Shown one piece after another: positions 1,621 through 24,373 of a stretch of 64,000 bases of DNA. Under the pieces are notes generated by a model. That model did not search any database. It saw only the letters and a program-made list of their open reading frames with translations, and was not told where the DNA came from. Source of the stretch: Saprospiraceae bacterium. GTDB lineage: Bacteria; Bacteroidota; Bacteroidia; Chitinophagales; Saprospiraceae. The stretch is from positions 18 to 64,017 of the forward strand of contig JAWKLQ010000031.1 of the NCBI GenBank assembly GCA_041392665.1, in the 5' to 3' direction. A program made the translations under genes and the position numbers. Each line of letters starts with the position of its first letter. Position 1 is the stretch's first letter.

Positions 1621-1624
1621 ATTT

Positions 1625-3798: not shown

Positions 3799-3848
3799 AG
3801 GATGAGTCAGTAAGCAAGTAAATAGGTGAGCCACTCACTCCTATCATT

Positions 3849-7660: not shown

Positions 7661-7711
7661 AGTTGTTTTCTATAAGGAGAAAGGTAAATTTTGGGCCTTA
7701 CTCCTGAACCT

Positions 7712-8263
7712 ATGGGAAATCAACAACTCAGAAAACATTTAAAACGCGGCATTTTTACCCGTCTGCGCTACTGGCGTTATAAACAACAGCTCGGCGATTG
7801 TGGGCCCGGGGTCTATTTCGAACCGCAGGTACATTTAATGCGCTACCCGAAAAATATCCATTTGGGAGCTCATCTGGTGCTGAAGTCCGGAGCCCGTATC
7901 TGCGCCTGCAACGAGCGTGCCCGTATCTCGATCGGCGATAATACGACCGTCGGTTATCATACCTATCTTTTTGCTTCGGATTCGATCACGATCGGCGCCA
8001 ATTGCCTGATCGCTCCTTTTGTGTATCTTGTCGATAGTGATCACAGCATTGCCCGCGACGAGCTCATCAACCGGCAGCCTAATCAGACATCACCTATTGT
8101 GATCGGTAATGACGTCTGGATCGGTACCGGAGCCAAGATCCTGAAGGGGGTAACCATCGGAGATGGGGCCGTAGTAGCCGCCGGCGCCCTGGTAAAGGAT
8201 GATGTAGCGCCGTATACGATAGTCGGTGGTATCCCTGCCAAAAAAATCAGTGAAAGGACATGA
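7712..8263 (+). CDS. Hexapeptide (left-handed beta-helix) O-acetyltransferase
   Basis: PIVIGNDVWIGTGAKILKGVTIGDGAVVAAGALVKDDV...VGGIPAK. ORF track starts at TTG 7691; ATG 7712 preferred. Confidence 0.9.
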   Translation: MGNQQLRKHLKRGIFTRLRYWRYKQQLGDCGPGVYFEPQVHLMRYPKNIHLGAHLVLKSGARICACNERARISIGDNTTVGYHTYLFASDSITIGANCLIAPFVYLVDSDHSIARDELINRQPNQTSPIVIGNDVWIGTGAKILKGVTIGDGAVVAAGALVKDDVAPYTIVGGIPAKKISERT

Positions 8264-8946
8264 AGATCGGAATTGCCGTACTCTGCCGGTACAGCTCAAG
8301 CCGCCTGCCCGGCAAGGTATTAAAGATCATAGCGGGGAAGCCCTTGCTGCAACATATTGTCGATCGGCTGGGGCAACTGGAACCGGAGCGGCCGGTAGTG
8401 GTGGCTACTTCTGAAGAAAGCAGCGATGATCCGATCGCGGAATATTGCAGACAACACCAAATTGAGTATTTTCGCGGCAGTTTGGCTAACGTAGCCGATC
8501 GCTTTTTTCAGGTAGCCCTGAAATATGACTGGGATTATATCGTTCGCATCAATGGCGATAACCTTTTCATCGACCTGGAGGCCATGCAATATTTACTGGA
8601 GCAGGCCGAAAAGGGCCATTATGATTTTCTTTCTACCGTCAAAGGGCGGACTTTTCCCTATGGAATGAGCATCGAGATCGCCCGGACGGATTTTTATGGG
8701 GAGGTGATCCGGCAAATAGCGGAAGAAAAATACAAAGAACACGTCACCTTATATCTATACGACCATCCGGAAGAAGGGGAACGGCATTATCTGTACAATA
8801 CCCGGTTTCCCGGATTGAGCGGCAGGCAAATGGCGATCGATACCCAGGAAGACTTTGCCCGGGCCACAAGGATCATGGACCGTTTGGCTCCTGTCGGATA
8901 TCAGTACACCTTGGGGGATCTGGCAAAAATCTACGATGAGTTATGA
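8260..8946 (+). CDS. SpsF-like cytidylyltransferase (CMP-nonulosonate/CMP-Kdo synthetase fold)
   Basis: CRYSSSRLPGKVL nucleotide-binding motif, VVATS, FRGS..NV..RF and RINGDNLF; ATGA overlap with the upstream gene. Confidence 0.88.
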   Translation: MKIGIAVLCRYSSSRLPGKVLKIIAGKPLLQHIVDRLGQLEPERPVVVATSEESSDDPIAEYCRQHQIEYFRGSLANVADRFFQVALKYDWDYIVRINGDNLFIDLEAMQYLLEQAEKGHYDFLSTVKGRTFPYGMSIEIARTDFYGEVIRQIAEEKYKEHVTLYLYDHPEEGERHYLYNTRFPGLSGRQMAIDTQEDFARATRIMDRLAPVGYQYTLGDLAKIYDEL

Positions 8947-9956
8947 AAAAAAATACCTGGGCCGGTAAGAACGGCCCATTGTTGATAGCGGAGATCGGAG
9001 GTAATCACGAAGGCGATTTTGACTATGCCCGGCGGCTTACTGAGCTGGCTATCGGAGCTAATGTAGATTTCATCAAATATCAGTTATACTCAGGCGATAC
9101 GCTGGTCAGCCGACTGGAGAGCCCGGTGCGCAATCAACACTTCAAAAAGTTCGAACTTTCCCGGGAAAAATATGTCGAGCTGGCGGAATTGTGCCGTAGC
9201 GCTGGTGTCGGCTTCATGGCTTCGGTCTGGGATATCGATTATATCGAATGGATCGATCCGTATCTGCCTATCTATAAAATCGGCTCGGGTGACCTGACGG
9301 CTTATCCCGTATTACGGGAGATTGCACGTTTGGGAAAACCCATTATTCTTTCTACCGGATTGGCCACTTTGCAGGAAGTTTTGGAAACGGTGGCCTATTT
9401 ACAGCATTTGGATGACCGTTACCTGAATCCCAATTTTCTGTCTATTCTGCAATGTACTTCCATGTATCCCATACCGGATGCGGATGCGCATCTTTCGGTG
9501 ATGCAGTCTTATAAAGCGGTGACCGGCCTTCCCGTTGGTTATTCCGATCATACGGAAGGGGGCGAAGCGCTGGCGCTGGCCGTGGCCATGGGGGCGGAGA
9601 TCCTGGAATTCCACTTCACGGATGCAAGAGAAGGAAAGACCTTTCGTGATCATAAAGTTTCCCTCACTCAGGCGGAAGTACTGGCTTTGATTGACCGGAT
9701 CAAAGCCATAAAGCTATTACAGGGAGATCCTTTAAAGCGCCCTTTGCCGGTGGAAGGCGACCACGTGATCACTTTCCGGCGGGCCGTATATCCGAAAGTG
9801 GACATTCACGCCGGTACCTGTATTGAGGCAAAACACCTGATCTGCCTGCGGCCTAATCATGGCATCGATGCCCGGAGTTATGATCAACTCATCGGTAAAA
9901 CTGCTTTAGTGGATCTGGCGGCACATCAAAAGCTGGAATGGGAATTTTTCCAGTAA
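8943..9956 (+). CDS. neuB: N-acetylneuraminate synthase family (NeuB/SpsE) with C-terminal SAF domain
   Basis: IAEIGGNHEGD, KIGSGD, ILSTG, QCTSMYP, GYSDHT, EFHFT and C-terminal LRPNHGI. Confidence 0.92.
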   Translation: MKKNTWAGKNGPLLIAEIGGNHEGDFDYARRLTELAIGANVDFIKYQLYSGDTLVSRLESPVRNQHFKKFELSREKYVELAELCRSAGVGFMASVWDIDYIEWIDPYLPIYKIGSGDLTAYPVLREIARLGKPIILSTGLATLQEVLETVAYLQHLDDRYLNPNFLSILQCTSMYPIPDADAHLSVMQSYKAVTGLPVGYSDHTEGGEALALAVAMGAEILEFHFTDAREGKTFRDHKVSLTQAEVLALIDRIKAIKLLQGDPLKRPLPVEGDHVITFRRAVYPKVDIHAGTCIEAKHLICLRPNHGIDARSYDQLIGKTALVDLAAHQKLEWEFFQ

Positions 9957-9999
9957 CTATGGACAACTGACAAAATAATCGATAAAATCAAACCAATAT

Positions 10000-11112
10000 A
10001 TGTTGCAGTGGCTGAAACAAACTCCCCTCGTACAACAGGGAGAATCGGATAAGGAGATCTGGATCCGACAGGATGCGGCGGAAACCCAGTCATTCCCCAT
10101 GGATCTATACCTGGGGAAGAAGACGGACCTTCTAACTTTAAAGAAGAACATCGTAGAAAGTGTTAAGGAAAAAGTGAAGTATTATCAGGAGTCCAGAAAG
10201 AAGCTGTACGGTGGGGAACACGAAAAGGTGGAAGAATGTCCGGTCACCGGGATCTCCACCGATGATGCTACATTGGTAGCCAATATTTATGGAGCGGAAT
10301 ACGTACAAACGCCGGATACGGGCCATGTATATGTACGAAACCGTCCGACTAAAAGAGCCATCCACGATTTTTATCTCAATGATGTTACCTACGCCGCTAC
10401 CTACACCGATAAATCGGCGGCAGAGTCCCGCTTGAATGCAATTGCGGTACCCTGGTGTGACTGGATGCTGAAAGTATATGAAAAACAGTACGGAAGGCGC
10501 CCCAGGCGCATACTGGACGTTGGTTCCGGTGCCGGGCACTTTGTAGAAGCGTGCCGTAGAGCCGGGCTGGAGGCTGAAGGAATAGAGTTGAGCGAGTCCA
10601 GCCGTCAGTTTGCACGAGACATCTGGGGATTTGAAATGGATGGCCGGGATTTTACTACGGTTACGGATGAATACGAGGGATTTGACGTGGTTACATTCTG
10701 GGGATTGCTGGAGCACACGCCAAATCCCGGAGCTATTTTACAAGCCGCTCATGATGTGGTGGCAAGCAGTGAAGGTGGAATGGTCATATCCAAGTTACCT
10801 CGCTGGAATTCCCTCAGCTCGGCGGCACAGCGTTTAAATCCGGATACCATTATCAGACACATCGATCCGATGGGGCATATCATGCTCTTTACGGATGCAT
10901 CGGCAGCTGAGTTATATATTCGTCATGGATTCAAACCCACTGCTGCCTGGTATTACGGAATGGATGTGTATGAGACGCTCATGCAGGTAGGCCACTTAAC
11001 AAATGCTTATGAAGGCTTCACCGGATCGGGGGCTTTTCAGACGGAGTTGCAACAGTTTGTGGATGAAATGCGTTTTTCTGATGGTATCACTTTAGTGGGT
11101 ATTCCAAAATAG
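10000..11112 (+). CDS. Class I SAM-dependent methyltransferase (glycan modification)
   Basis: ILDVGSGAG motif I, GIELS and FDVVTFWGLLEH; embedded in the NeuB operon. Confidence 0.88.
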   Translation: MLQWLKQTPLVQQGESDKEIWIRQDAAETQSFPMDLYLGKKTDLLTLKKNIVESVKEKVKYYQESRKKLYGGEHEKVEECPVTGISTDDATLVANIYGAEYVQTPDTGHVYVRNRPTKRAIHDFYLNDVTYAATYTDKSAAESRLNAIAVPWCDWMLKVYEKQYGRRPRRILDVGSGAGHFVEACRRAGLEAEGIELSESSRQFARDIWGFEMDGRDFTTVTDEYEGFDVVTFWGLLEHTPNPGAILQAAHDVVASSEGGMVISKLPRWNSLSSAAQRLNPDTIIRHIDPMGHIMLFTDASAAELYIRHGFKPTAAWYYGMDVYETLMQVGHLTNAYEGFTGSGAFQTELQQFVDEMRFSDGITLVGIPK

Positions 11113-11117
11113 AAGCG

Positions 11118-12503
11118 TTGATGGCCTTACTAACCGTCTATATCACTAACTACAACTACGGCAATTACATCCGCAAAGCCATCGAGAGCGTATTCCAGCA
11201 AAGTTTTCAGGATCTGGAACTGCTGATCATCGACGACGGCTCTACGGATGATTCCCGCAATATCATCGAGCAGTATGCCGACCGGGCTAACGTCCTGGTG
11301 ATCTACCAACAAAACAAAGGGCTGAATATTACCAATAATATCGCCCTGCAACTGGCTCGTAGTCGCTACATAATGCGACTGGATGCCGATGATTATCTTA
11401 AGGCGGACGCTCTGGAGAAAATGGTAGAGGTATTGGAGGGGAATCCGGAGATCGGACTGGTATTCCCGGATTACTATCTGGTGGATAAAGACGAGCACAT
11501 CCTGGCGGAAATCAAACGACACGATTTTGATAAAGAAGTAAGCCTGCTGGATCAGCCTGCACACGGAGCCTGTACCATGATCCGCACGGACTTCCTCCGG
11601 AATGTAGGGGGATATGATGAGGCCTATTCGTGTCAGGATGGTTATGAACTCTGGATCAAATTTGCCACGAAATATCCGGTGGCCAATATCCGTGAACCGC
11701 TGTTCTTTTACCGGCAACACGGTGAAAATCTGACTACTAACGAAGAACGTATCCTGGATACACGCCGGACGATCAAACGTGATTTTATCAGTAAGAATGC
11801 ACTGGAATTACCAGTAACTGCCGCGATCATTCCGGTACGGAATACACAGCTAAACGGCAAAGCCCTTCCATTTACTGAATTGGGTGGCAACACACTTCTG
11901 GATATTAAGATCAGATCGGCCCTGAAAAGTCCCTTGATCCGCAGGGTGGTCGTTACCTCTGCTGATGAGCTTGTCGGTAATTACGTGAGCGAACAGTATG
12001 CTGATGAAAAGCGGGTGCTCTTTGTAGAACGCCCGATGAGCCTGGCACGTCACAATGTTTCTCTTACAGGCACTATCCACCATGTACTTGAAGCGCCGGA
12101 TCTGGTACAGGACGCGATTGAGGCAGTTATGATATTGCCAATTGAATTCCCTTTTTTGCGATCGGAAGATATTGAGGATGCTATCAATACCCTGGTCATT
12201 TTTAAAGCCGACTCGGTGATCAGCGTGCGCATCGAGCGGTCTAGTTTTTACCAACATCACGGCGGTGGAATGATCCCTATTTTGGACCAGGAGAAGTTTA
12301 CCAGATTAGAACGGGAAGCCCTTTACAAACACGTAGGAGGTATGACCCTGACTTATGTGGAGAATATCAAAGCGGGCAAAGTTCTGAATGGTAAGGTTGG
12401 ACACGTAGTGGTTGATCAGGCGACATCACTGGGGATCAACTCCGGGTATGAACTGGAGATCGCCCGTTTTTGGTATGAACGATCAGCCAGGGTTATTATT
12501 TAA
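11118..12503 (+). CDS. GT2 glycosyltransferase fused to a C-terminal cytidylyltransferase-fold domain
   Basis: N-terminal ITNYNYG...IIDDGSTD...RLDADD (GT-A DxD). From ~aa 232: AAIIPVRN...VVVTS...VERP..LA...EFPFL, resembling NeuA. Confidence 0.85.
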   Translation: MMALLTVYITNYNYGNYIRKAIESVFQQSFQDLELLIIDDGSTDDSRNIIEQYADRANVLVIYQQNKGLNITNNIALQLARSRYIMRLDADDYLKADALEKMVEVLEGNPEIGLVFPDYYLVDKDEHILAEIKRHDFDKEVSLLDQPAHGACTMIRTDFLRNVGGYDEAYSCQDGYELWIKFATKYPVANIREPLFFYRQHGENLTTNEERILDTRRTIKRDFISKNALELPVTAAIIPVRNTQLNGKALPFTELGGNTLLDIKIRSALKSPLIRRVVVTSADELVGNYVSEQYADEKRVLFVERPMSLARHNVSLTGTIHHVLEAPDLVQDAIEAVMILPIEFPFLRSEDIEDAINTLVIFKADSVISVRIERSSFYQHHGGGMIPILDQEKFTRLEREALYKHVGGMTLTYVENIKAGKVLNGKVGHVVVDQATSLGINSGYELEIARFWYERSARVII

Positions 12504-12544
12504 CGGAGGAATTTAAACGGCTGTGGTTGAGGTTAATGATATGA

Positions 12545-14029
12545 TCAACCGAATATTCTTTTCCAGTTATCATCCAGCGCTTTATTCAATTCAGGTGATA
12601 ATTTCCACCAATAGACCGGACCCAGAAATAACAATGCTACGGCTGTACCCCGATAGAGCATATTGAAAATAGCCGAGGAAGTGGTTGGCAGCCACCAACC
12701 GATCAATGCTGCAACTCCACCGATCAACAATACCCATAGTGTGTTCCAGCTAAAGGGAAACATATCAAATTGCCAGTGTACATAGTAGGTGCGCAGCGCA
12801 TTAAAACTGATCAGTGAGAATGTGGTGGCCATTGCCGCTCCCTCCATACCATAGCGGGGAATAAGGAGAAGATTCAAAGCAATATTGATCAGGCCGAGAA
12901 ACAGAATGAAATATACATTCACCCGGTAACGACTCGAGTACTGGATGATGTAACCGTTGATGCTGGTTCCCATGTCTACGATCCTGCCAATACCCAGAAT
13001 AAGCAGGGCCCAATAGGCATCGAGCAATACCTCACCTTTGGAAGACAACTTGCAAAGATCGGGAAAGTTGATCCCGATCTCTGTCAATAGAAAAACTGCA
13101 GCGATCAGCAGCAACAGAGAAGTTTGCCGGTAGAGGGATTTGATGTGGGTGGTGTCGTTCTTTTGCCAGCTCGAGGCAATGATCGGAGCAGAGATAGTTG
13201 ATATCGATCGATGGGGAATGGCGATGGCCATGGATATGGTAATAGCCAGGCTGTATACACCAGTGTGATACATGTCGTCGAGGCTACCCATCATAAAAGT
13301 ATCCAGTTGTAGGGCCAGCGCACTGCCCAGGCTTCCCAGCATGCTGAAACCGGCGAAATCAGCCATGACTTTCCCATATTCCCAGATCCTGGAATCGGGT
13401 TTCTGGAAGTGCAGTTCGCCCAGTTTACGGAGGTACAGTAATAGGAAAAGGATGATCACCACATAGGCCAGTAAAAAGATCCGGACAACCCAGGTCAGGT
13501 CGATGTATCCGAAATAGAATAACAGGATCAAGGCCGGTACGACGAATTTCAGAAAAAGATCGTGAAAGATGGCCGGCCAGACGATTCGCTGAAAATTGGA
13601 AATGTAGTTGGTTAACATGTTGACCAGGACCAGTTGGTAGGTCAGGGGGATAAAGTACCAGAGAAACCTTGGATCAAAATTGGATTCCGCCTCCCGACTG
13701 GCGTAATAAGCATAGATCTGATCCCAGAAAATTAAGACAAAGAGAACAAACACCAAAAAGGCAGCACTTGCCGCCAGGAAAAGAAAACTAAGGAAACCAT
13801 GATGACCGCCATCTTCCGTCTTGAAGGTAGGAAAAAAGCGAATGGTCAGGTTTTGGATTCCCCAGTTGGCAAGTGGCAGGAAAAGTAGTGCTGCGGATTT
13901 GAGCAACTGCGTATGTCCGTATGCTTCCGGTGCAAGGTTATAAACAAAAACAGTACTCAGCATTCCGATCCCGGCACCGAGATAATTTACCAGACTACTC
14001 TTAATTCCTTGTCTCTGAATGACCCCCAT
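12545..14029 (-). CDS. Wzx/MATE-like polysaccharide flippase
   Basis: 494 aa with ~14 hydrophobic segments; MGVIQRQ start; LNLLLIPRYGMEGAAMAT motif. Confidence 0.9.
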   Translation of the reverse strand: MGVIQRQGIKSSLVNYLGAGIGMLSTVFVYNLAPEAYGHTQLLKSAALLFLPLANWGIQNLTIRFFPTFKTEDGGHHGFLSFLFLAASAAFLVFVLFVLIFWDQIYAYYASREAESNFDPRFLWYFIPLTYQLVLVNMLTNYISNFQRIVWPAIFHDLFLKFVVPALILLFYFGYIDLTWVVRIFLLAYVVIILFLLLYLRKLGELHFQKPDSRIWEYGKVMADFAGFSMLGSLGSALALQLDTFMMGSLDDMYHTGVYSLAITISMAIAIPHRSISTISAPIIASSWQKNDTTHIKSLYRQTSLLLLIAAVFLLTEIGINFPDLCKLSSKGEVLLDAYWALLILGIGRIVDMGTSINGYIIQYSSRYRVNVYFILFLGLINIALNLLLIPRYGMEGAAMATTFSLISFNALRTYYVHWQFDMFPFSWNTLWVLLIGGVAALIGWWLPTTSSAIFNMLYRGTAVALLFLGPVYWWKLSPELNKALDDNWKRIFG

Positions 14030-14075
14030 TGCTTACTTTTGCGGGTACGAAATTAAGCATTATTTTTACCTCCGT

Positions 14076-15149
14076 ATGAGCAAATATCTTTTCGTGGTAC
14101 ACAGCAGCATTACCCTCCGCATGGCGCGGGCCGTTATCCACGAGAATGGATGGGAAAGAGATGATTGCATTTTTTTAAGTGACCGGGGATTTCAGCTTGA
14201 GAGCGAACCGGTTCAGGTGCTGGATATTACGCCTTATTTTATTCGTCCGGTCCGATGGAGGGAAAAGCAGCAATTATTTGAAACCTGCCGAACGAACAGA
14301 AAACAGCTTCAGGCACTGGATGTACTGATCACGTCAAAGATAGGTAGCCCATACCGTCTTTTTATCCCACATACACGGCCTTATGCTTATCTGGCCATGA
14401 TCCGCCATCCACTTTGTCTTCAGTATGCTTTTATTGAGGAAGGTACACTGAGCTACCGGACTGGTTTTTATAATTATGTCCATAATGCTTCAGCGCTGAA
14501 AAGGAAGTTGTTGCAGGGAATAATTCGTTATTGCCTGGGTCCGGGATTCCGGGCTTTCCCTGAATCCTTATCCTTTGATCATCCCAAATATGCCGGATGT
14601 TACGGCATTAGTAAGGATACTTTTCCTACTTTGCCCGACGAAGGAAAACATATTCTGCCACCTCCTTTTGAGCACAGAGAGGATTACGCAGTAATTGAGC
14701 ATTTACTGGTAACCGGCCCCTGGATTGAAAAAGGATATTGCAGCATTTCAGAATACCAAACTATGAAACGGGCTTTGTTTCGCTACTGGATAGGAGAAGG
14801 GATCGCTACCTTATACGTAAAGTTCCATCCGCAGCAATATCACGAACAGATATCTATTCCCGTTTTCAGAGATATTGCAAAAGCTTTTGCGGATAGGATC
14901 CAAGTTATTGAACTTCCTCCGGAAGCAGCACCGGAAGAGATTGCCTACAGCAGTCAGGCGGATTTTTATCTGGCATATAGCAGTACAACCATCTACGCAC
15001 GGCAATTCGGATGCCGGGTATTTTCCTACGCCAAACCCATGAGAGAGAATTGGCCGGCCTTTCGAAATTTTTTCGATCACCTCCCACCGGTGATCACTGA
15101 AAATATGATTTTATTAGATTTTCCTTTACAGTTTGACGGAAATAAATGA
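14076..15149 (+). CDS. Putative GT-B sialyl/nonulosonate transferase (polysialyltransferase-like)
   Basis: FIEEGT (D/E-D/E-G) and YVKFHPQ (HP) motifs. The ORF-track start at 14019 overlaps wzx, so MSKYLF at 14076 is preferred. The last codons and stop lie inside MITE copy 1. Confidence 0.7.
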   Translation: MSKYLFVVHSSITLRMARAVIHENGWERDDCIFLSDRGFQLESEPVQVLDITPYFIRPVRWREKQQLFETCRTNRKQLQALDVLITSKIGSPYRLFIPHTRPYAYLAMIRHPLCLQYAFIEEGTLSYRTGFYNYVHNASALKRKLLQGIIRYCLGPGFRAFPESLSFDHPKYAGCYGISKDTFPTLPDEGKHILPPPFEHREDYAVIEHLLVTGPWIEKGYCSISEYQTMKRALFRYWIGEGIATLYVKFHPQQYHEQISIPVFRDIAKAFADRIQVIELPPEAAPEEIAYSSQADFYLAYSSTTIYARQFGCRVFSYAKPMRENWPAFRNFFDHLPPVITENMILLDFPLQFDGNK

Positions 15150-15258
15150 AACAAATTTTCCTTAAGTTTTTAAAATTTCGAACGCCATCTTCTGATGGTC
15201 AATGGCTTATCGAAATATTGAAAACCTAAATTTGTTTCATTTATTTTTTCTCCGTCAC
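15128..15258 (-). mobile_element. 132-bp MITE, copy 1 (most diverged, 131 bp)
   Basis: Aligns along its full length with the copies at 18929, 24374 and 37371; ends are degenerate (ACAGTTTGAC...CCGTCAC); flanks TTT/GTT are not a clean duplication. Confidence 0.85.
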
Positions 15259-15290
15259 GTTGGAGGATAGAGCTGATTAAAAATAATTGA

Positions 15291-16466
15291 ATGGAAAAAG
15301 TTGTTGCCATTATTCCTGCACTTGAGGATACAGCTGCGGGACAAAATTTTCTAACCCGTCTTTTGTGTGGTCGTCCCCTCATTTTCTGGACGCTGGATGC
15401 CCTGCAGCAATGTCCGAAAGTCAAACAGATCATAGTGGCTACCAATAGTGATACGGCGGCTGCTTCATTGTTCCGGATGGAATTCTCAAAAATGGCAATC
15501 TACCGTACTGAAGCCCCGGATGTGATTAACTACGAGAAAATCGAAACATTACTATTGGAGTACCTTCGTCAGTCCAGACTGGCGAATGACGATATCTTTA
15601 TGTTGGTTGATTATACTTTCCCACTACATACAAGTAATCAATTCGAAGAGGCGCTGGGTCTAATGCACAGTATTGGAGCTTATTCGCTCTTCAGTGCGGT
15701 CCGCAACCGTCATTTTTACTGGACGCACGACGGGATCAGTATCAGTTATAACTACCGGAAACGTCCGTCAAAGGAAGAGCAACACAAAGAATTGCTTGAA
15801 ACGGAAGGTTTTTACTTCAGCAAAGTAGGTAGTTTTATTGCTAATATAAATCGCTTATCCGGTAAGATCGCAGTGTATGAAATGCCCTCTTACACCGCAT
15901 TTCAACTTCGGGAACCCATCGATTGGAAAATAGGTGAGCTTCTGATGCATCAATATCGTATCGATCATTCCAGAGAAGAGGGGTTTGGCCGGGTCAAACT
16001 TGTGGTGTCGGATGTTGATGGGGTCATGACTGACGGCAGTATGTACTATACGGAAAAAGGAGATGAGATCAAACGATTTCATACTTATGACGGCATGGCT
16101 TTTGGATTGATCCGGGAACAAGGGATCAAGACTGCGATCATCACTTCAGAGGATACTCAGATGGTTAATAACCGTGCAAAAAAATTAAAGATCGACTATT
16201 TGTATCAGGGACGACGACATGGTGGGAAACTTGCCGCAATTCAGGATATTTGTGAAAAGGAAGGGATCAGTCTGAGTGATGTAGTGTACATCGGTGATGA
16301 TATCAACTGCCGGGAAGCGCTGAGTGCAGTGGGTTTTGCTTTTTGCCCGGCTAATGCTACGCCGGATATACAGGCTCTGCCTAATATTATCTATCTGGAG
16401 ACGATGGGAGGAAGTGGAGTCGTGCGGGAAGTATATGAAAAATATTTGCGGCCCAGTTTTGAATGA
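15291..16466 (+). CDS. Fusion of a NeuA-like cytidylyltransferase-fold domain and a KdsC/Kdn-9-P-type HAD phosphatase
   Basis: N-half VAIIPA...IIVATNSD...FSAV; C-half SDVDGVMTDG (HAD DxD), IITS, YIGDDIN and GGSGVVRE. Confidence 0.88.
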   Translation: MEKVVAIIPALEDTAAGQNFLTRLLCGRPLIFWTLDALQQCPKVKQIIVATNSDTAAASLFRMEFSKMAIYRTEAPDVINYEKIETLLLEYLRQSRLANDDIFMLVDYTFPLHTSNQFEEALGLMHSIGAYSLFSAVRNRHFYWTHDGISISYNYRKRPSKEEQHKELLETEGFYFSKVGSFIANINRLSGKIAVYEMPSYTAFQLREPIDWKIGELLMHQYRIDHSREEGFGRVKLVVSDVDGVMTDGSMYYTEKGDEIKRFHTYDGMAFGLIREQGIKTAIITSEDTQMVNNRAKKLKIDYLYQGRRHGGKLAAIQDICEKEGISLSDVVYIGDDINCREALSAVGFAFCPANATPDIQALPNIIYLETMGGSGVVREVYEKYLRPSFE

Positions 16467-16540
16467 TGGATTTTGAGCTTTTTCAATTACCTGTACTCGC
16501 TGCTCTAATCCTGAGATTTTCTTAAACCGACTAGATTTCA

Positions 16541-17848
16541 ATGAAAAAAATACAGATCGATAAATCGCGCTCAACAAAGGACATTGCCGATCGGATCAGG
16601 GACCTGTTCCCTATCCATCGTACGCTGGTCAATGATGGCTATCGGATCTCGATGGATCGACTGAAGCAGGAACTGCCATTTGTGGTACACGAGATCCCGA
16701 GCGGAAAGCAGGTATTAGACTGGATTGTCCCGAAATCCTGGAATGTCAAGGTCGCAAGGATCAAAGATCCGGAGGGAAACACATTGATCGATTTTGCCGA
16801 TCACAATTTGCATTTGTCGGCCTATAGCCGGGAATTCAATGGCATCATCAGCCACGAAGAATTATTGTCACATCTAAATTTCCGGGAGGATCTACCGGAA
16901 GCCATTCCCTACAATTTTCACTATTATAAAAGCCACTGGTCGTTCAATCTAAGTTTCGATACCTTCCGGGAAAAATTTATCCACGACGGTTATGAAGTGG
17001 AAATGAAGATCAATGAGTATGATGATTTCCTGCGTATCGGGGAGATTTATCTGCCAGGTGAACGGGAAGAGGAAGTACTGATCACCTCCTATATGTGTCA
17101 TCCATCTATGGTGAATGATAACCTATCCGGGGTAGTGGTCACAACGGAGCTATTTAAATATTTGCAACAGGTAAAAGGATTGAAATATTCTTACCGGCTG
17201 ATCATTATCCCCGAAACCATCGGAGCTATTGCATACCTGGCAGAGTTCCCTGAAAAATGTGAGAAAGTGTTTGCCGGCCTTACCGCTTATTGCTGTGGAG
17301 GTAATGGTAAGTTGCATTACAAGAAAACCTACAGTGGTGAGACAATGATTGACGAAGTGGCAAAGTATTCATTCGATCAGTTTTATCCGGATGTCTCCGT
17401 CATCCTGCCTTTTTGGCCAGGAGGTTCGGACGAACGACAGTTCAATGGCACCGGAGTGCGTATGCCGATGGGGGCCCTCACCCGGATCCCTCCTGCGGAG
17501 TTCAAAGAATATCATACTTCTCTGGATACCCCGGAACTGATCTCTCCGGAAAGCCTGGTAGACACCCTGGAAAATCTAGCCACCATGATTAACGTGTTGG
17601 AAGCCGATAACCTATATGTAAACCATTACAAAGCCGAACCCTGTTTTTCCCGCCATGACATTGCTTACCCCACTTTTCGGGACGCATTGGCCAAATCAGC
17701 CGCCTATATTGTGAAGATCCTGGCCAATGAAGTAGATGGAAGCAATAGTCTGCTCGATATTGCCGTAAAATGGAACATGAACATTTTTGACCTGGCAGAG
17801 ATGGCGAGGGCTTTTGAAAAGGAGGGCTTGATCTCGGTTACGAGATAG
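16541..17848 (+). CDS. DUF4910/DUF2172 aminopeptidase-like (M28-fold) glycan-biosynthesis protein with C-terminal winged helix
   Basis: LFPIHRTL..DG, DWIVPKSWNV, DHNLHLSAYS, YMCHPSMVNDNLSG, GSDERQF, EYHTSLD and NEVDGSNSLLDIA. Confidence 0.88.
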   Translation: MKKIQIDKSRSTKDIADRIRDLFPIHRTLVNDGYRISMDRLKQELPFVVHEIPSGKQVLDWIVPKSWNVKVARIKDPEGNTLIDFADHNLHLSAYSREFNGIISHEELLSHLNFREDLPEAIPYNFHYYKSHWSFNLSFDTFREKFIHDGYEVEMKINEYDDFLRIGEIYLPGEREEEVLITSYMCHPSMVNDNLSGVVVTTELFKYLQQVKGLKYSYRLIIIPETIGAIAYLAEFPEKCEKVFAGLTAYCCGGNGKLHYKKTYSGETMIDEVAKYSFDQFYPDVSVILPFWPGGSDERQFNGTGVRMPMGALTRIPPAEFKEYHTSLDTPELISPESLVDTLENLATMINVLEADNLYVNHYKAEPCFSRHDIAYPTFRDALAKSAAYIVKILANEVDGSNSLLDIAVKWNMNIFDLAEMARAFEKEGLISVTR

Positions 17849-17924
17849 TGATCGTTTAGAACGGTGTTCGTTTGCCCTTGTTTTTGATGAATGGAGTATG
17901 GGGAACGAATAAACCGACGAAACC

Positions 17925-18932
17925 ATGATACCAATGAAAAAATACCTGGAATATCCCGTTTTCATCTGTGGCCACCGTAAGACCGGTACCACGATGCTGG
18001 TGAATTTGTTTGATGGTGCGAAGGATGCAGTCGTGTTTCCTGATGATAGCACTTTTTTCTATATGTATTTCCCCCGCTATGTGGGAGAACGGTTCTCGGT
18101 TGAAGAAAAGCGAGAACGGCTCGCTAATGTGTTGGTAGGGGAGGTGCACCGGAAAAAGATCGCCAAGGCTAATTGCACGGAAGCCGAAAGAGAAAAACTC
18201 ATGGGACAACTGGAGGATTTCCGGGCGGAGATCCTTACCTGGCCGGCTGAAGATTTTGAACTAAAGCAGGTTCTTCCAAAATTTATCGACGGCTACAATC
18301 GCTATTTCCAGCGGGTGGAGCATCCGAAAGTCTGGATCGAAAAAACAACCAGTACGGAGATCTACGCACTGGAATTGCTTGACAATTTCCCAAACGCCAA
18401 ATTCATTCACATCATACGCGATCCTCGTGATAATTGGGGCTCGCTGCTCTCCGGCTGGGAACAGCGCTATAAGGAATACAACGACGAAGTGAATCGCTTA
18501 AAACAAAGCTTGATAGAACGCAGCGGCCTTGGCTTTCAAATGGCTATGGCCAATGAGGATGTAATGGGGAAAGATCGTTATCGCATCGTCCGCTTTGAAG
18601 ATGTCACGGCCGATCCACAGCGCTATATCCGGGAATTGGCCGAATTCATCGGTATCGACTATAGTACGGACCTTTTGTATCCTTCAACATTCGGCTATCG
18701 CTGGGAAGGCAACAACTTTGACGGAGAGAAATTCTCGAAACCTTCTACCGTTAACGTCAATCGCTGGCGGGACCGGATCAGTGAAGCGGATGCCCAACTG
18801 ATCGAATTTCATTTTCGGGAAGCCATGGATCATTTCGGCTACGATCGGGTATTTGACCGGGCGGATTGTATACGGGCTGCTGCTGCCCATTACAAGTGGT
18901 TCAACTTCTCTACACCATTTTCGGCAAAGTGA
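17925..18932 (+). CDS. PAPS-dependent sulfotransferase
   Basis: 5'-PSB loop ICGHRKTGTTML, WIEKT, 3'-PB motif IIRDPRDNWGS and VRFEDV. Start may be 17934. The stop TGA lies inside MITE copy 2. Confidence 0.9.
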   Translation: MIPMKKYLEYPVFICGHRKTGTTMLVNLFDGAKDAVVFPDDSTFFYMYFPRYVGERFSVEEKRERLANVLVGEVHRKKIAKANCTEAEREKLMGQLEDFRAEILTWPAEDFELKQVLPKFIDGYNRYFQRVEHPKVWIEKTTSTEIYALELLDNFPNAKFIHIIRDPRDNWGSLLSGWEQRYKEYNDEVNRLKQSLIERSGLGFQMAMANEDVMGKDRYRIVRFEDVTADPQRYIRELAEFIGIDYSTDLLYPSTFGYRWEGNNFDGEKFSKPSTVNVNRWRDRISEADAQLIEFHFREAMDHFGYDRVFDRADCIRAAAAHYKWFNFSTPFSAK

Positions 18933-19060
18933 CGGGGCAAAAATAAATGAACCAATTTTAGGCTTTTAATATTTTGCTAAGCCATTGACTAACAGGAGAT
19001 GGCGTGCGAAATGTTCAAAACCTACAGAAAAAATTGGTTCATTTATTTCCGTCTAACTAC
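18929..19060 (+). mobile_element. 132-bp MITE, copy 2
   Basis: GTGACGG...AAATAAATGAACCAATT---AATTGGTTCATTTATTT...CTAC, flanked by AAA on both sides (18926-18928, 19061-19063). Confidence 0.9.
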
Positions 19061-19089
19061 AAAGTGTTCTGGGATGAATACTGATCACA

Positions 19090-19842
19090 TTAGCTCTTTT
19101 GAAATCCCAGATACTCCCCGATCTTGAAAGCCAGTATCTTTCCCCATTTCATCTTTCGGGGACTATAATGATTAAAGTAGCGACTAACTTCCCAGACCAG
19201 TCTTTTGCGTTTAAGGAAACTTTGTTTGGCGACAAAGGATTCCGGATGCTGCCGGTAAAAGGTAAGCGGTTCCTGCAAGATCCTCCGCCGGCCCCTGATA
19301 ATACTCTGTACGTGGATGCGGTTGTCGAACCAGATCAACCGGAATGCTTCGTTGATGGGGAACATGCTTGCCATAAACTCCCGCTCGGCCACCAGACAGC
19401 TGGTTGCGGCTATATAACCTACCATGAATCGCTCGCGTACATCTTCCAGGGTAGCCTCCGGAATATGCGGTTCACCGGGAGTATAGCTGTGGGCCAGCAG
19501 ATCAAAAGGTCGTTCCTGATATTCGCTTATTACTCTATCAACCTTGTGTGGTAAAAATGCATCGTCCCCATCCAGTAAAAAAATGAGCTGTCCGGTAGAG
19601 AGGTAGAAGGCCTCCTGGATACCATGTGCCTGATTGAGCATGGAGGTTTTTCCGTAATTGGGATGATGGATGAGTTTGGCTTCAGGAAATTTTGCGATCT
19701 CCTCTAAGGACTGATCGGTGCTTCCGTCGTCGTAAACGATCACTTCAATTTCGTGGGTAGTTTCCTGCCCGAAAGCACTCTCCAGGCATTCTCTTATGTA
19801 CGGTCCGTTGTTGTAGTTGTTGATCAGGATGCTAACCTTCAT
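19090..19842 (-). CDS. GT2 glycosyltransferase
   Basis: VSILINNYNNG, VYDDGSTD, LLDGDD and LTFYRQH. Confidence 0.92.
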   Translation of the reverse strand: MKVSILINNYNNGPYIRECLESAFGQETTHEIEVIVYDDGSTDQSLEEIAKFPEAKLIHHPNYGKTSMLNQAHGIQEAFYLSTGQLIFLLDGDDAFLPHKVDRVISEYQERPFDLLAHSYTPGEPHIPEATLEDVRERFMVGYIAATSCLVAEREFMASMFPINEAFRLIWFDNRIHVQSIIRGRRRILQEPLTFYRQHPESFVAKQSFLKRKRLVWEVSRYFNHYSPRKMKWGKILAFKIGEYLGFQKS

Positions 19843-19861: not shown

Positions 19862-21037
19862 CTACACCGTCAACCATCTCATCACATACACCAGGGCGAT
19901 ACTGACGATCAGTCCAAAAGTGACCTTTGCCAGATCCGATCCGATCATCCGGTAGGTGCGGTACATAGGATGCTCGGTACTCCTGGTTTCCAGAAAAGTG
20001 ACCAATGCCCGGACGATAATAGCCGCGGCAAAGGTATAAATGATCAGGTGGTTGTCACTAATGGGAATGGCTCCTTCCGGCTCCGCCATTACCAGATACA
20101 GGCTGTATCCCACAACATAAACGACAAAAGCCAGCACGATCACGTTGGTAACAACCGTGAGTGTACGATAGAGACTCGTGGAGGAGTAAGTCTCTTTTCC
20201 CAGTCGGTAACGGATGGCGATCTCCCGGCCAGCCAGTAAGCCCAGGAAGACCCAGGTGGTAGACATCGGTACATTGCTCAGCTCTTTGAAGAAGAGTAGG
20301 ATCAGCGCGTATAGAAAGTCGATGATGGTTGCTGACCGGATATCAACTGTATTGGTCTTGGCCTTGACGATCTGTTGAATGGCACCTCCTCGTGAGTAAA
20401 AAATGTAGCCCAACATGGCGAGTAGAACCAATAGTGAGAAGAGTAATTGGTTAAGCGTCAATGATCTCGGTAGGTAAACGTAAATATTGGCAAAATCCTG
20501 GATCAGCCACTGTCCCCAAAGGAAACCCGTAGAGCACCATTGCAAAACCGTCCAGATGCTTTTTTCGCGTGGAGTGATCGGGTTTTGGATGAACCGCCGA
20601 TCCAGAAAACGGGTGACAACCTGCCAGATCAGAATGGCGGCTGCAAAAGCCAGAACATAGCCCAAAACGGACTTCATGGTCATATCCAGCAGCCCCTTAG
20701 GCTTGAAGAAGGTAAGTATGAGGAAGGAGGTACTTACCGGAATACCCGTCCGGGTCAGCAACATGAGGACCAAGGGCGGTAATAGATAAGGCCAGCTTAG
20801 ATTCTCAATGAAAGCATAGGATTGCAATCTTCCGTATGATACATCACCCTGATAGTTGTTCCATCCGAGTATCAGCGTGAAAGCCAGAATACTTCCTGCG
20901 TAAAGCCACAACACATACCAGGACCGTTCTTCATTGGAAGAAAGAAAAGTGCCGAGTGTCTGAATACTGTCGTTACCCACTACGGAATAACCGGCCAGGA
21001 GAAATCCCAGCCACATGATCACCAATGAATAGTCCAT
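19862..21037 (-). CDS. Polytopic membrane protein, distant PiT/PHO4-type anion (phosphate) permease-like
   Basis: About 11 TM segments. GNDSIQTLG and QDFAN echo the PiT GAND/ND signature; PVSTS and PMSTT echo PiT PVSTT. ORF track starts at 21070. Confidence 0.55.
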   Translation of the reverse strand: MDYSLVIMWLGFLLAGYSVVGNDSIQTLGTFLSSNEERSWYVLWLYAGSILAFTLILGWNNYQGDVSYGRLQSYAFIENLSWPYLLPPLVLMLLTRTGIPVSTSFLILTFFKPKGLLDMTMKSVLGYVLAFAAAILIWQVVTRFLDRRFIQNPITPREKSIWTVLQWCSTGFLWGQWLIQDFANIYVYLPRSLTLNQLLFSLLVLLAMLGYIFYSRGGAIQQIVKAKTNTVDIRSATIIDFLYALILLFFKELSNVPMSTTWVFLGLLAGREIAIRYRLGKETYSSTSLYRTLTVVTNVIVLAFVVYVVGYSLYLVMAEPEGAIPISDNHLIIYTFAAAIIVRALVTFLETRSTEHPMYRTYRMIGSDLAKVTFGLIVSIALVYVMRWLTV

Positions 21038-21331
21038 TAAAGGTTGACTTGTTGTTATGGCTTTCTGCAAATCAAATAGAACACGGTATCTCCATATCGC
21101 CTTTTCAGATATCTGTTGCGGAAAGCGATTGCGCTAAAAATAAGGATTCGATTTTGATTTCCCGGGATTTGAAAGTTTACTTTTTTATTAATTCTAAGGC
21201 TGACGGCAAACGGTTTCCGATGAACTGTTATTGATGCATAAATCTTCGTTTCAGGTAGCACTTCTATGGTTTATCATGTTTAGCGCACCTCTGGCCGTCT
21301 ACTATGCTTTGATTACTGTGTTCAAGATGAA

Positions 21332-24289: not shown

Positions 24290-24373
24290 CTGATATAAAG
24301 TATTAAAAATTGAGAATGAGAAGGCCTGCCATTTATGGGGAGACCTTCTCATTTTATGTAGGTTCACCCTTTA

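What the first reader, a model, noticed from the sequence alone, without database searches (positions are those of the whole stretch)
7712..19842. Nonulosonic-acid glycan locus with acetyl, methyl and sulfate tailoring but no NeuC/Pse/Leg precursor genes
Seen: NeuB, CMP-transferase folds, a KdsC-type phosphatase, a sialyltransferase-like GT, Wzx, two GT2s, an acetyltransferase, a SAM methyltransferase, a sulfotransferase and DUF4910. Not seen in the window: UDP-GlcNAc 2-epimerase, PseB/LegB dehydratase or aminotransferase. Known: NeuB plus a HAD phosphatase without NeuC is the layout of the Kdn (mannose-6-P to Kdn-9-P to Kdn) route described in Bacteroides thetaiotaomicron. Inference: the product is a Kdn- or Neu-type sugar that is O-acetylated, O-methylated and sulfated, resembling modified sialic acids of marine invertebrates. 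A bacterial pathway with this combination would be unusual.
Basis: partly seen in the sequence, partly recalled or inferred. Interest (0 to 1): 0.7.

Follow-up and report, generated by a model that had tools for sequence, protein, structure and literature searches.

The report
Modified nonulosonic-acid glycan locus, Saprospiraceae
A wastewater Saprospiraceae bacterium carries a surface-sugar gene cluster built around a widespread but unstudied sialic-acid-like synthesis module, plus a Kdn-type phosphatase fused to a dead activating-enzyme domain and a sulfotransferase/DUF4910 pair that recurs in such clusters; the sugar is probably an acetylated, methylated Kdn-like acid, but this is unproven.

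Summary

For Kdn:
- The HAD domain matches the B. thetaiotaomicron Kdn-9-P phosphatase best and keeps its Glu56/Lys67 pair.
- The fused N-domain matches a CMP-Kdn synthetase best and keeps the Kdn gate-keeper Arg. It has lost every CTP-binding and catalytic motif, so it is probably a dead domain.

Against a simple B. theta-type route:
- NeuB is only 28% identical to the BT1714 ortholog.
- NeuB falls below both curated NeuB/LegI and PseI cut-offs.
- NeuB belongs to a separate clade.

That clade sits in a conserved block: acetyltransferase, cytidylyltransferase, NeuB, methyl- or acetyltransferase, then a GT2 fused to a CMAS-like domain. The block occurs in about 80 genomes from at least 8 phyla. 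It almost never has precursor genes or a phosphatase beside it.

The sulfotransferase and DUF4910 form a conserved pair. All 13 informative metagenome loci carry both, usually next to PseI-like synthases. Sulfation is therefore tied to nonulosonate loci in general.

Bacterial precedents exist: Kdn9Me in a sulfated O-antigen, 5-O-methyl-Kdn, and Kdn teichulosonic acids. I rate this a new variant of a known kind.

The parts
7691..8263 (+). Hexapeptide-repeat acetyltransferase of the LacA/WbbJ/WcaF type. It is the first gene of the conserved block and overlaps the next gene by 4 nt.
   Evidence: Pfam Hexapep 63 bits. NCBIfam best hit WbbJ 83 bits; NeuD/PglB family only 59.5 bits. Present in 60 of 81 related loci, directly upstream of the cytidylyltransferase.
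8260..8946 (+). SpsF-like cytidylyltransferase (CT228), the probable CMP-nonulosonate synthetase of the locus.
   Evidence: PF02348 97 bits. Best PDB hit 6oew, 82 bits. The R..S.RLPGK motif is conserved in 60 homologs. CT228::NeuB fusion proteins are common in the clade, e.g. P0364. Found in 64 of 81 loci.
8943..9956 (+). NeuB-family PEP-condensing synthase with a SAF domain, belonging to a distinct, uncharacterised clade.
   Evidence: PF03102 199 bits. TIGR03569 256.8 bits (cut-off 399.65) and TIGR03586 175.9 bits (cut-off 340.25). About 30% identity to NmNeuB and CjPseI. 28% identity to the BT1714 ortholog. NJ tree.
10000..11112 (+). SAM-dependent methyltransferase (370 aa) that partners the block NeuB.
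   Evidence: Methyltransf_23 64 bits. Orthologs of 55-88% identity lie directly after NeuB in 18 loci; other loci have a 268-aa methyltransferase or a second acetyltransferase there. NeuB::methyltransferase fusion P0362.
11118..12503 (+). GT2 glycosyltransferase fused to a CMAS-like C-terminal domain (GT2CT).
   Evidence: PF00535 99 bits plus weak PF02348. The GT2 domain matches K4CP, 114 bits, and 6p61, 106 bits. DXD and other GT2 motifs are about invariant, while the C-domain is poorly conserved. C-domain versus CMAS N-domain by hhalign: 99.4% probability, E=5e-22. Found in 68 of 81 loci.
12545..14029 (-). Wzx-type flippase.
   Evidence: PF01943. Orthologs in the same position and orientation in L008 and L088.
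14076..15149 (+). Candidate CMP-nonulosonate transferase, resembling bacterial GT-B sialyltransferases.
   Evidence: PF07388 E=0.005, below cut-off. The D/E-D/E-G motif (E121-E122-G123) and HP motif (H251-P252) are conserved in orthologs with a spacing of 128 residues; NmB polyST has 124 (motifs from PMC2169525). The structure model was unusable.
15140..15246 (.). Copy 1 of a ~107-nt palindromic, high-copy intergenic repeat (MITE/REP-like).
15291..16466 (+). Fusion of a degenerate CMP-Kdn-synthetase-like domain (residues 1-225) with an intact Kdn-9-P-type HAD phosphatase (residues 232-391).
   Evidence: N-domain: best PDB hit 9t4z PpNeuA, 64 bits. Arg196 equivalent R188 is kept, but R19L, S22T, K28F, N29L, R78T, Q110D and RRQD>SKEE are changed (residues from PMC12934254). 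HAD domain: 3e81 BT1713 128 bits against KdsC 98 bits. E287 and K298 equal BT1713 E56 and K67, where KdsC has R and E/A. NF058599 154.9 bits (cut-off 180).
16541..17848 (+). DUF4910/DUF2172/HTH_47 protein of the CA_C2195 family, the conserved partner of the sulfotransferase.
   Evidence: PF16254 257 bits. Adjacent to the orthologous sulfotransferase in all 13 informative metagenome loci and in L083. Its link to SpsE/SpsF loci was noted in PMC4000134.
17925..18932 (+). PAPS-type sulfotransferase.
   Evidence: PF13469 92 bits and PF00685 44 bits. GHRKTGTT and RDPRDN motifs are conserved with the L083 ortholog. The orthologous subfamily sits in NeuB/PseI loci.
18941..19048 (.). Copy 2 of the palindromic repeat, inverted relative to copy 1.
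19090..19842 (-). GT2 glycosyltransferase (250 aa).
   Evidence: PF00535 73 bits. 77% ortholog in L008 and an ortholog in L088 at the same position.
19862..21070 (-). Polytopic membrane protein (about 9 TM segments, no Pfam match), a candidate Wzy-like polymerase or ligase.
   Evidence: No family hit. Hydropathy analysis. 73% ortholog in L008 and a 391-aa ortholog in L088.

Best explanation
The locus assembles a Wzx-dependent surface glycan that carries a tailored nonulosonic acid. The acid is most likely a 5-deamino (Kdn-type) sugar.

Proposed route:
1. The clade-specific NeuB (8943-9956) condenses PEP with a hexose 6-phosphate from central metabolism (mannose-6-P for Kdn). This would explain why no NeuC/Pse/Leg precursor genes are needed.
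2. The HAD domain of the 15291-16466 protein removes the 9-phosphate.
3. The SpsF-like cytidylyltransferase (8260-8946) makes the CMP-sugar. The CMAS-like domain fused to the phosphatase does not do this step, because it is degenerate.
4. The hexapeptide acetyltransferase and the methyltransferase O-acetylate and O-methylate the sugar at the monosaccharide or CMP-sugar level.
5. The sialyltransferase-like protein (14076-15149) transfers the sugar. The GT2/CMAS-like fusion and the second GT2 add neighbouring hexoses.
6. Wzx flips the unit.
7. The DUF4910/sulfotransferase pair, an accessory cassette found in nonulosonate loci of several synthase types, adds or uses a sulfate on the acid sugar or its glycan.

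Shown: domain identities, motif states, synteny, co-occurrence and fusions.
Inferred: the substrate of NeuB, the order of the tailoring steps, and the targets of the transferases and of sulfation.
For: - Gene content is confirmed and no precursor genes lie in the 64 kb.
- The block AT-CT228-NeuB-(MT/AT)-GT2CT is conserved: NeuB in 81 loci, GT2CT 68, CT228 64, AT 60. Epimerase_2 appears in only 3 loci, a PseB-like SDR in 29 and DegT in 15.
- CT228::NeuB and NeuB::methyltransferase fusions exist.
- The HAD domain is closest to BT1713 and has the E56/K67 signature.
- The N-domain is closest to the CMP-Kdn synthetase PpNeuA and keeps Arg196, invariant in 16 homologs.
- The HAD domain is under tighter constraint than the N-domain: 85% against 58% identity at the same evolutionary depth.
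- The HAD gene is kept as a stand-alone gene in the fully syntenic locus of Flavilitoribacter nigricans and in L088.
- A neighbouring lineage has, at the same chromosomal site, a short NeuB plus an intact CMAS-HAD fusion (L090). The phosphatase therefore survived replacement of the synthase module.
- The transferase candidate carries the sialyltransferase motifs.
- The sulfotransferase-DUF4910 pair is conserved inside NeuB/PseI loci.
Against: - NeuB is only 28% identical to the BT1714 ortholog. In an NJ tree the BT1714-like and short NeuBs are the most distant group.
- Nearly all other block loci lack a phosphatase within 10 kb. Only L008, L057 and L088 have one.
- Two Saprospiraceae MAGs (L056, L061) carry the block beside a separate short-NeuB/NeuA pair. 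This suggests the block makes a different sugar from that pair.
- 29 of 81 loci have a PseB-like dehydratase nearby.
- The Arg196 equivalent sits in a domain that is probably inactive, so it reports ancestry rather than present chemistry.
- The HAD scores below the NF058599 cut-off (154.9 against 180).
- The rest of the genome could not be searched.
Confidence: 0.45

Rival explanations
1. The block NeuB makes an amino nonulosonate (Pse/Leg-like, or a mono-amino 9-deoxy form) from a nucleotide-sugar precursor. The dehydratase, aminotransferase and hydrolase genes for that precursor would lie elsewhere in the genome. The hexapeptide enzyme would then be an N-acetyltransferase, and the phosphatase would serve another pathway.
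For: - 29 of 81 related loci have a Polysacc_synt_2 (PseB-like) SDR and 15 have a DegT aminotransferase within 10 kb.
- Maf/MptE-like genes, the Pse/Leg transferase candidates, lie beside the block in 18 loci.
- In the NJ tree the clade is nearer to the PseI/NeuB supergroup than to BT1714.
- The sulfotransferase-DUF4910 pair usually accompanies PseI-like synthases.
Against: - Most block loci (over 50) have no dehydratase or aminotransferase within 10 kb on either side, and none lies in this 64-kb window.
- Scores are far below the PseI and NeuB/LegI cut-offs.
- The acetyltransferase resembles O-acetyltransferases (WbbJ 83 bits) more than the NeuD/PglD family (59.5 bits).
- This reading does not explain why an intact Kdn-9-P-type phosphatase is retained.
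Confidence: 0.2
2. The phosphatase/pseudo-CMAS gene is a leftover of an older Kdn module (short NeuB plus CMAS-HAD, as in L090) that the block displaced. It is unrelated to the block's chemistry. The block would make a different, so far undescribed ulosonic acid from a non-phosphorylated aldose.
For: - L090 has the short NeuB plus an intact CMAS-HAD at the same chromosomal site.
- The CMAS domain is decaying in the window's lineage and is deleted in F. nigricans.
- The block normally works without a neighbouring phosphatase.
- The block coexists with a short NeuB/NeuA pair in L056 and L061.
Against: - The catalytic (DxDG, GDD) and specificity residues of the HAD domain are intact. The domain is 84-85% identical where the N-domain is 55-58%.
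- It was kept through three independent rearrangements (window, L088, L008). This argues for a current function in these loci.
Confidence: 0.2
3. The locus follows an animal-type Neu5Ac route: ManNAc-6-P (from GlcNAc-6-P through a NanE-type epimerase encoded elsewhere) plus PEP gives Neu5Ac-9-P, then Neu5Ac, then CMP-Neu5Ac.
For: - A NeuB plus HAD phosphatase layout without NeuC also fits this route.
- TIGR03569 is the best-scoring NeuB model.
- The CMAS+KdsC-like architecture is that of vertebrate CMAS.
Against: - The gate-keeper Arg, which excludes the 5-N-acetyl group in PpNeuA, is invariant in this fusion family.
- The phosphatase carries the Kdn-9-P signature.
- No NanE or NanK gene lies in the window.
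- NeuB is far below the Neu5Ac-synthase cut-off.
Confidence: 0.07

Closest known systems
Kdn pathway of Bacteroides thetaiotaomicron (BT1714 Kdn-9-P synthase, BT1713 Kdn-9-P phosphatase, CMP-Kdn synthetase; Wang et al. 2008, cited in PMC9000132 and PMC6200933)
   Same: Both have a NeuB-family synthase plus a C0-type HAD phosphatase without NeuC. The phosphatase domain is the closest solved relative (128 bits) and keeps Glu56 and Lys67.
   Different: The synthase is not orthologous (28% identity, separate clade). Here the phosphatase is fused to a degenerate CMAS domain. Activation is probably done by an SpsF-like cytidylyltransferase. The locus also adds acetyl-, methyl- and sulfotransferases and a GT2/CMAS-like fusion.
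Short NeuB + bifunctional CMAS-HAD module of other Bacteroidota (e.g. Carboxylicivirga mesophila L092, metagenome L090)
   Same: It is the same fusion family (47-57% identity) with the same invariant Arg196 equivalent. L092 also holds PAPS-synthesis genes and a sulfotransferase. L090 sits at the same chromosomal site as this locus.
   Different: In those loci the CMAS motifs are intact and the partner is a 287-294-aa NeuB without a SAF domain. Here that NeuB is absent, the CMAS domain is degenerate and the block supplies NeuB and the cytidylyltransferase.
Vertebrate CMP-sialic acid synthetase (CMAS; N-terminal synthetase + C-terminal KdsC-like domain; PDB 1qwj, 3ewi)
   Same: It has the same two-domain architecture, and both domains give detectable PDB matches.
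   Different: From my own knowledge of the literature, the phosphatase-like domain is the inactive one in mouse CMAS. Here the synthetase domain has lost its motifs and the phosphatase looks intact.
Bacterial Kdn glycans with methyl or sulfate groups: Kdn9Me in the sulfated O-antigen of Poseidonocella sedimentorum (Kokoulin 2018, cited in PMC9912281), 5-O-methyl-Kdn K-antigen of Sinorhizobium fredii (cited in PMC9000132), Gal-Kdn teichulosonic acids of Streptomyces with methyl groups (PMC11481543)
   Same: These are chemical precedents for O-methylated Kdn, for hexose-Kdn repeats and for sulfated polysaccharides that contain Kdn in bacteria.
   Different: I know of no assigned genes for the methylation or sulfation in those organisms. 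No chemistry is known for this organism.
DUF4910 (CA_C2195) neighbourhoods described by Das et al. 2014 (PMC4000134)
   Same: DUF4910 is linked to SpsE (NeuB), SpsF, glycosyltransferases, Maf-like proteins, methylases and acyltransferases.
   Different: The passages of that paper read here (section 10 with Table 2; its supplementary tables were not read) list no sulfotransferase partner. Here the sulfotransferase is the tightest neighbour: all 13 informative loci carry both, and in 9 the two genes are directly adjacent.
Bacterial GT-B sialyltransferases GT38/GT52/GT80 and the Tannerella Pse/Leg transferases (PMC2169525, PMC5420450)
   Same: The D/E-D/E-G and HP motifs occur in the right order and with the right spacing.
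   Different: The sequence is below the Pfam cut-off and the fold is not verified.

Membership tests
B. thetaiotaomicron-type Kdn pathway | The synthase is orthologous to BT1714 (Kdn-9-P synthase). | tested here: not met
   28% identity to the BT1714 ortholog on L007. BT1714-like and short NeuBs form the most distant group in the NJ tree.
B. thetaiotaomicron-type Kdn pathway | A C0 HAD phosphatase with the Kdn-9-P specificity pair Glu56/Lys67 and intact catalytic motifs. | tested here: met
   Window E287 and K298 align with BT1713 E56 and K67, the residues mutated in PDB 4hgq and 4hgr. KdsC proteins have R and E/A there. DxDG and GDD are intact. That these two residues set specificity is from my memory of Daughtry et al. 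2013.
B. thetaiotaomicron-type Kdn pathway | The NCBIfam equivalog NF058599 (Kdn-9-P phosphatase) is reached. | tested here: not met
   It is the best hit, but at 154.9 bits against a cut-off of 180. The true BT1713 ortholog scores 262.7.
B. thetaiotaomicron-type Kdn pathway | A catalytically competent CMP-Kdn synthetase with the gate-keeper Arg. | tested here: inconclusive
   The Arg196 equivalent R188 is present, but the CTP-binding and catalytic residues of that domain are lost. The intact SpsF-like CT228 could take over; its sugar specificity cannot be read from sequence.
B. thetaiotaomicron-type Kdn pathway | NeuB converts Man-6-P + PEP to Kdn-9-P. | not testable with these tools
   This needs an enzyme assay.
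N-acetylneuraminate / legionaminate synthase (TIGR03569 equivalog) | Score at or above the curated cut-off of 399.65 bits. | tested here: not met
   256.8 bits.
Pseudaminic acid synthase PseI (TIGR03586 equivalog) | Score at or above the curated cut-off of 340.25 bits. | tested here: not met
   175.9 bits. 29% identity to C. jejuni PseI.
NeuB family (PF03102 + SAF) | Pfam gathering score is reached, and the metal and PEP-binding core is conserved. | tested here: met
   199 bits, plus SAF 30 bits. The alignment to NmNeuB runs across the whole catalytic and SAF domains.
Bacterial GT-B sialyltransferases (GT38/52/80) | D/E-D/E-G and HP motifs. | tested here: met
   E121-E122-G123 and H251-P252 are conserved in L008 and L088 orthologs, with a spacing of 128 against 124 in NmB polyST.
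Bacterial GT-B sialyltransferases (GT38/52/80) | Family profile score or GT-B fold. | tested here: inconclusive
   PF07388 gives 16.9 bits against a cut-off of 23.3. The PDB profile search was empty. The AF2 single-sequence model had pLDDT 35.
PAPS-dependent sulfotransferases | Pfam score and the 5'-PSB / 3'-PB motifs. | tested here: met
   PF13469 gives 91.7 bits. GHRKTGTT and RDPRDN are conserved with the ortholog. The meaning of these motifs is from general knowledge.
DUF4910 / CA_C2195 family | Pfam DUF4910 + DUF2172 + HTH_47 architecture in a nonulosonate neighbourhood. | tested here: met
   257, 85 and 25 bits. Neighbourhood evidence.

The most novel reading that the evidence does not exclude
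Two linked claims survive the evidence.

1. The block AT-CT-NeuB-(MT/AT)-GT2/CMAS-like is a self-contained pathway to an undescribed, precursor-independent ulosonic acid. It is spread over at least 8 phyla, including SAR11.

2. The sulfotransferase-DUF4910 pair is a portable two-enzyme cassette that acts directly on nonulosonic acids of any type. It would either give bacterial O-sulfated nonulosonates, or use sulfate as a leaving group for a DUF4910-catalysed substitution.
Probability: 0.3. Interest if true: 0.75.

Novelty: new variant of a known kind. Interest (0 to 1): 0.6.

Why it matters
Kdn and sulfated glycoconjugates are measured in wastewater-sludge extracellular polymers, but the genes behind them are not assigned. 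PMC10483923 states that reference sulfotransferases find few hits and that Kdn and Neu5Ac synthases cannot be told apart by annotation.

This locus comes from a sludge Saprospiraceae and offers concrete candidates:
- A NeuB clade outside all curated equivalogs, with a fixed set of partner enzymes in about 80 species.
- A Kdn-9-P-type phosphatase whose fused synthetase domain has decayed, the mirror image of vertebrate CMAS.
- A sulfotransferase subfamily that, together with DUF4910, lives inside nonulosonate loci.

A cultured relative, Flavilitoribacter nigricans DSM 23189, has the same block and phosphatase, so the sugar can be identified directly. If the sulfotransferase acts on the acid sugar, it would be the first bacterial counterpart of sialate O-sulfation.

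Tried and rejected
- Structure prediction of the sialyltransferase-like protein. Only a single sequence was allowed, the model had pLDDT 35 and no fold search was attempted.
- PDB profile search for the same protein. Only chance hits.
- PDB search for the GT2CT C-domain alone. Nothing. hhalign against the CMAS family did work.
- Reading the sugar specificity of CT228 from an hhalign alignment to CMAS. The C-terminal part is too unreliable.
- Promoter and terminator scan. Not above shuffles for promoters, and uninformative for a Bacteroidota genome.
- Rfam on the locus. No hits.
- The idea that the two repeat copies define a mobile cassette. Rejected as specific evidence, because the same element occurs at two other intergenic sites in the window.
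- The idea that the L061 Epimerase_2 gene is NeuC. Rejected: it gives 215 bits to E. coli WecB and sits next to a UDP-sugar dehydrogenase.
- Wang et al. 2008 and Daughtry et al. 2013 could not be read. What I say about them rests on citing papers and on memory.

Full report
OBSERVATION

- Hexapeptide acetyltransferase, 7691-8263.
- A 228-aa cytidylyltransferase ('CT228'), 8260-8946.
- NeuB+SAF, 8943-9956.
- SAM methyltransferase, 10000-11112.
- GT2 fused to a cytidylyltransferase-like domain ('GT2CT'), 11118-12503.
- Wzx, 12545-14029 (-).
- A weakly polysialyltransferase-like protein, 14076-15149.
- A cytidylyltransferase-like/HAD fusion, 15291-16466.
- DUF4910, 16541-17848.
- Sulfotransferase, 17925-18932.
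- GT2, 19090-19842 (-).
- A 9-TM membrane protein, 19862-21070 (-).

The first three genes overlap by 4 nt each. Pfam on every other large ORF of the window finds no Epimerase_2, DegT or Polysacc_synt_2. E. coli WecB finds nothing by tblastn. So 'no NeuC/Pse/Leg genes' holds for these 64 kb.

SOURCE AND RELATIVES

The sequence recurs in wastewater and activated-sludge metagenomes. Small metatranscriptome contigs lie on GT2CT and the membrane protein.

The closest cultured relative is Flavilitoribacter nigricans DSM 23189 (NeuB 81% identical). Its locus L008 is syntenic gene for gene, from the upstream LamG/T9SS protein to the membrane protein. It differs in two ways: its phosphatase is a stand-alone gene, and it has no DUF4910 or sulfotransferase.

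A metagenome contig, L088, has the block plus the fused phosphatase, again without DUF4910 or the sulfotransferase.

THE CONSERVED BLOCK

A scan of one genome per species returned 80 loci with a NeuB 49-81% identical to this one. They come from Bacteroidota, Gamma- and Alphaproteobacteria, SAR11, Gemmatimonadota, Marinimicrobia, Omnitrophota, Verrucomicrobiota and others.

tblastn and ORF clustering show one invariant arrangement: AT > CT228 > NeuB > (370-aa MT | 268-aa MT | second AT) > GT2CT.

Occurrence among these loci:
- NeuB in 81, GT2CT in 68, CT228 in 64, AT in 60. Many contigs are truncated.
- Maf/MptE-like in 18 and YfhO in 17.
- PseB-like SDR in 29, DegT in 15, WecB-like epimerase in 3.
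- A HAD phosphatase only in L008 and L057.

A search of 1.84 billion representatives shows that CT228::NeuB fusion proteins are common in this clade and that a NeuB::methyltransferase fusion exists. CT228 and the methyltransferase therefore work on the same small molecule as NeuB.

PLACEMENT OF NeuB

- NeuB scores 256.8 bits on TIGR03569 (cut-off 399.65) and 175.9 bits on PseI (cut-off 340.25).
- It is about 30% identical to N. meningitidis NeuB and C. jejuni PseI.
- I recovered a 99% ortholog of BT1713 with its neighbouring BT1714 ortholog. The window NeuB is 28% identical to that synthase.
- In an NJ tree of 148 NeuB domains the block clade stands alone. BT1714-like and 'short' NeuBs are the most distant group.

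This tree is rough: NJ method, midpoint root, few labelled references. The expectation that it groups with a known Kdn-9-P synthase is not met either.

THE PHOSPHATASE FUSION

The HAD domain:
- It matches BT1713 best: 128 bits against 98 or less for KdsC, and NF058599 is the best NCBIfam model at 154.9 bits, below its cut-off of 180.
- It keeps BT1713 Glu56 and Lys67, where KdsC proteins have Arg and Glu/Ala.

The N-domain:
- It matches PpNeuA best, the Kdn-specific CMP-Kdn synthetase of Prymnesium parvum (64 bits; mouse CMAS 40 bits).
- That paper names Arg196 as the Kdn gate-keeper (PMC12934254). The window has Arg188 there, invariant in 16 family members.
- In the window and its four closest homologs every CTP-binding or catalytic element is replaced: IPARGGSK..KN > IPALEDTA..FL, QATSP > DYTFP, RPRRQD > RPSKEE, E(I/L)DEPDDW > QLREPIDW.
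- Homologs at 47-57% identity, from Bacteroidales, Marinilabiliales and Flavobacteriaceae, keep all of these elements.
- The N-domain also evolves faster than the HAD domain: 58% against 85% identity to P0243.

I read this as a pseudo-CMAS domain on a working phosphatase.

Neighbourhoods of the intact fusions show their normal partner, a 287-294-aa NeuB without a SAF domain:
- L090 sits at the same chromosomal site as this locus.
- L092, from Carboxylicivirga mesophila, has the pair next to cysC/cysD/cysNC and a sulfotransferase.

The likely history is this. A short-NeuB/CMAS-HAD (Kdn-type) module was displaced by the block. The synthetase half became redundant to CT228 and decayed; in F. nigricans it was deleted. 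The phosphatase half was kept.

OTHER TRANSFERASES

- GT2CT: the GT2 half is about as conserved as NeuB, with invariant DXD. The C-half is homologous to CMAS over its whole length (hhalign 99.4%, E=5e-22) but poorly conserved. I suggest, as inference only, that the C-half binds the acid sugar while the GT2 half adds a hexose. This would resemble hexose-Kdn teichulosonic acids (PMC11481543).
- The 14076-15149 protein has the D/E-D/E-G and HP motifs of bacterial sialyltransferases, with polyST-like spacing.

THE SULFOTRANSFERASE AND DUF4910

In the block survey the pair recurred only in an Omnitrophota contig: GT2CT-NeuB-sulfotransferase-DUF4910 (L083). I then scanned metagenome contigs with a sulfotransferase alignment.
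- 17 loci hold orthologs of 31-54% identity.
- All 13 with usable flanks carry DUF4910, and in 9 it is directly adjacent.
- 9 of the 13 carry a NeuB-family gene, mostly PseI-like (44-51% to C. jejuni PseI). An example is L107: PseB-like SDR, DegT, cytidylyltransferase, PseI, sulfotransferase, DUF4910, acetyltransferase.
- More distant sulfotransferases (28% identity or less) lack these neighbours.

DUF4910's link to SpsE/SpsF loci was already published (PMC4000134). The tight sulfotransferase partnership is not mentioned in the passages of that paper I read.

So sulfation, or a sulfate-dependent step, is tied to nonulosonate loci of several synthase types. It gives no support for Kdn in particular.

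MODEL

The locus most probably makes a Wzx-flipped glycan with an O-acetylated, O-methylated nonulosonate. The route would be sugar-6-P + PEP (NeuB), dephosphorylation (HAD), CMP activation (CT228), then transfer.

The Kdn-type identity rests on three points: the phosphatase signature, the retention of the phosphatase, and the absence of amino-sugar genes. It is weakened by three others: the placement of NeuB, the lack of phosphatases in most block loci, and the coexistence of the block with a short-NeuB/NeuA pair in L056 and L061. I give the Kdn-type identity 0.45. The rivals are listed separately.

COMPARISON AND NOVELTY

These are all known:
- Kdn pathways in B. theta, Serratia and Prymnesium (PMC9000132, PMC6200933).
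- Methylated Kdn in S. fredii, Streptomyces and P. sedimentorum.
- A sulfated O-antigen containing Kdn9Me (PMC9912281).

New here are the block and its NeuB clade, the pseudo-CMAS/phosphatase fusion, and the sulfotransferase-DUF4910 pairing. I file it as a new variant of a known kind.

Noticed in passing
window 15140-15246, 18941-19048, 24386-24493, 37383-37490: A ~107-nt palindromic intergenic element has perfect 19-nt terminal inverted repeats (AAATAAATGAAMCAAWTTT). The window holds 8 half-sites against 0.06 expected. In wastewater contigs its word depth is about 659 against about 17 for the flanks, so it is a high-copy MITE/REP-like repeat. Two inverted copies bracket the phosphatase-DUF4910-sulfotransferase segment. 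One assembly graph joins 15160 to 19031 across them.
   Followed up: partly
window 21403-24367 (-) and 3847-5451 (-): A TonB-dependent receptor is split into two overlapping ORFs (21403-22911 and 22691-24367), whereas L088 has one 964-aa gene. A TPR/LuxR gene that is a single 534-aa ORF on the near-identical Logan contig L001 is broken in the window. These may be frameshifts or assembly errors.
   Followed up: no
L092 (Carboxylicivirga mesophila JAGUCN010000002.1) 74-9164: cysC, cysD, cysN/C, Wzx, a Sulfotransfer_1 protein, a GT1, a 287-aa NeuB and an intact CMAS-HAD fusion lie in one operon-like row. This is a Kdn-type module together with its own PAPS supply and an unrelated sulfotransferase.
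   Followed up: partly
L090 7850-12216: The chromosomal site is the same as in the window (LamG/T9SS genes upstream, GT2 and GT4 downstream). It holds a pyruvyltransferase, a short NeuB and an intact CMAS-HAD fusion instead of the block. This is an example of module replacement at a glycan locus.
   Followed up: partly
L078 and L079 (Pelagibacteraceae single-cell genomes) about 9986-15492: In SAR11 the block NeuB is followed by a radical-SAM/SPASM protein, a NeuB::cytidylyltransferase fusion (576-587 aa) and GT2CT.
   Followed up: no
L083 77-2995 (Omnitrophota MAG): A single 972-aa ORF appears to join a NeuB-like part, a CT228-like part and GT2CT. It lies directly upstream of the block NeuB, the sulfotransferase and DUF4910.
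   Followed up: no
window 32585-33325 (-): A CysZ/EI24-type sulfate transporter gene lies 13 kb from the sulfotransferase. No PAPS-synthesis genes are present in the window.
   Followed up: no
L056 6379-8686 and L061 2899-4441: Two Saprospiraceae MAGs carry a short NeuB and a stand-alone NeuA-like CMAS, divergently oriented, right next to the block. These genomes may make two different nonulosonates.
   Followed up: partly
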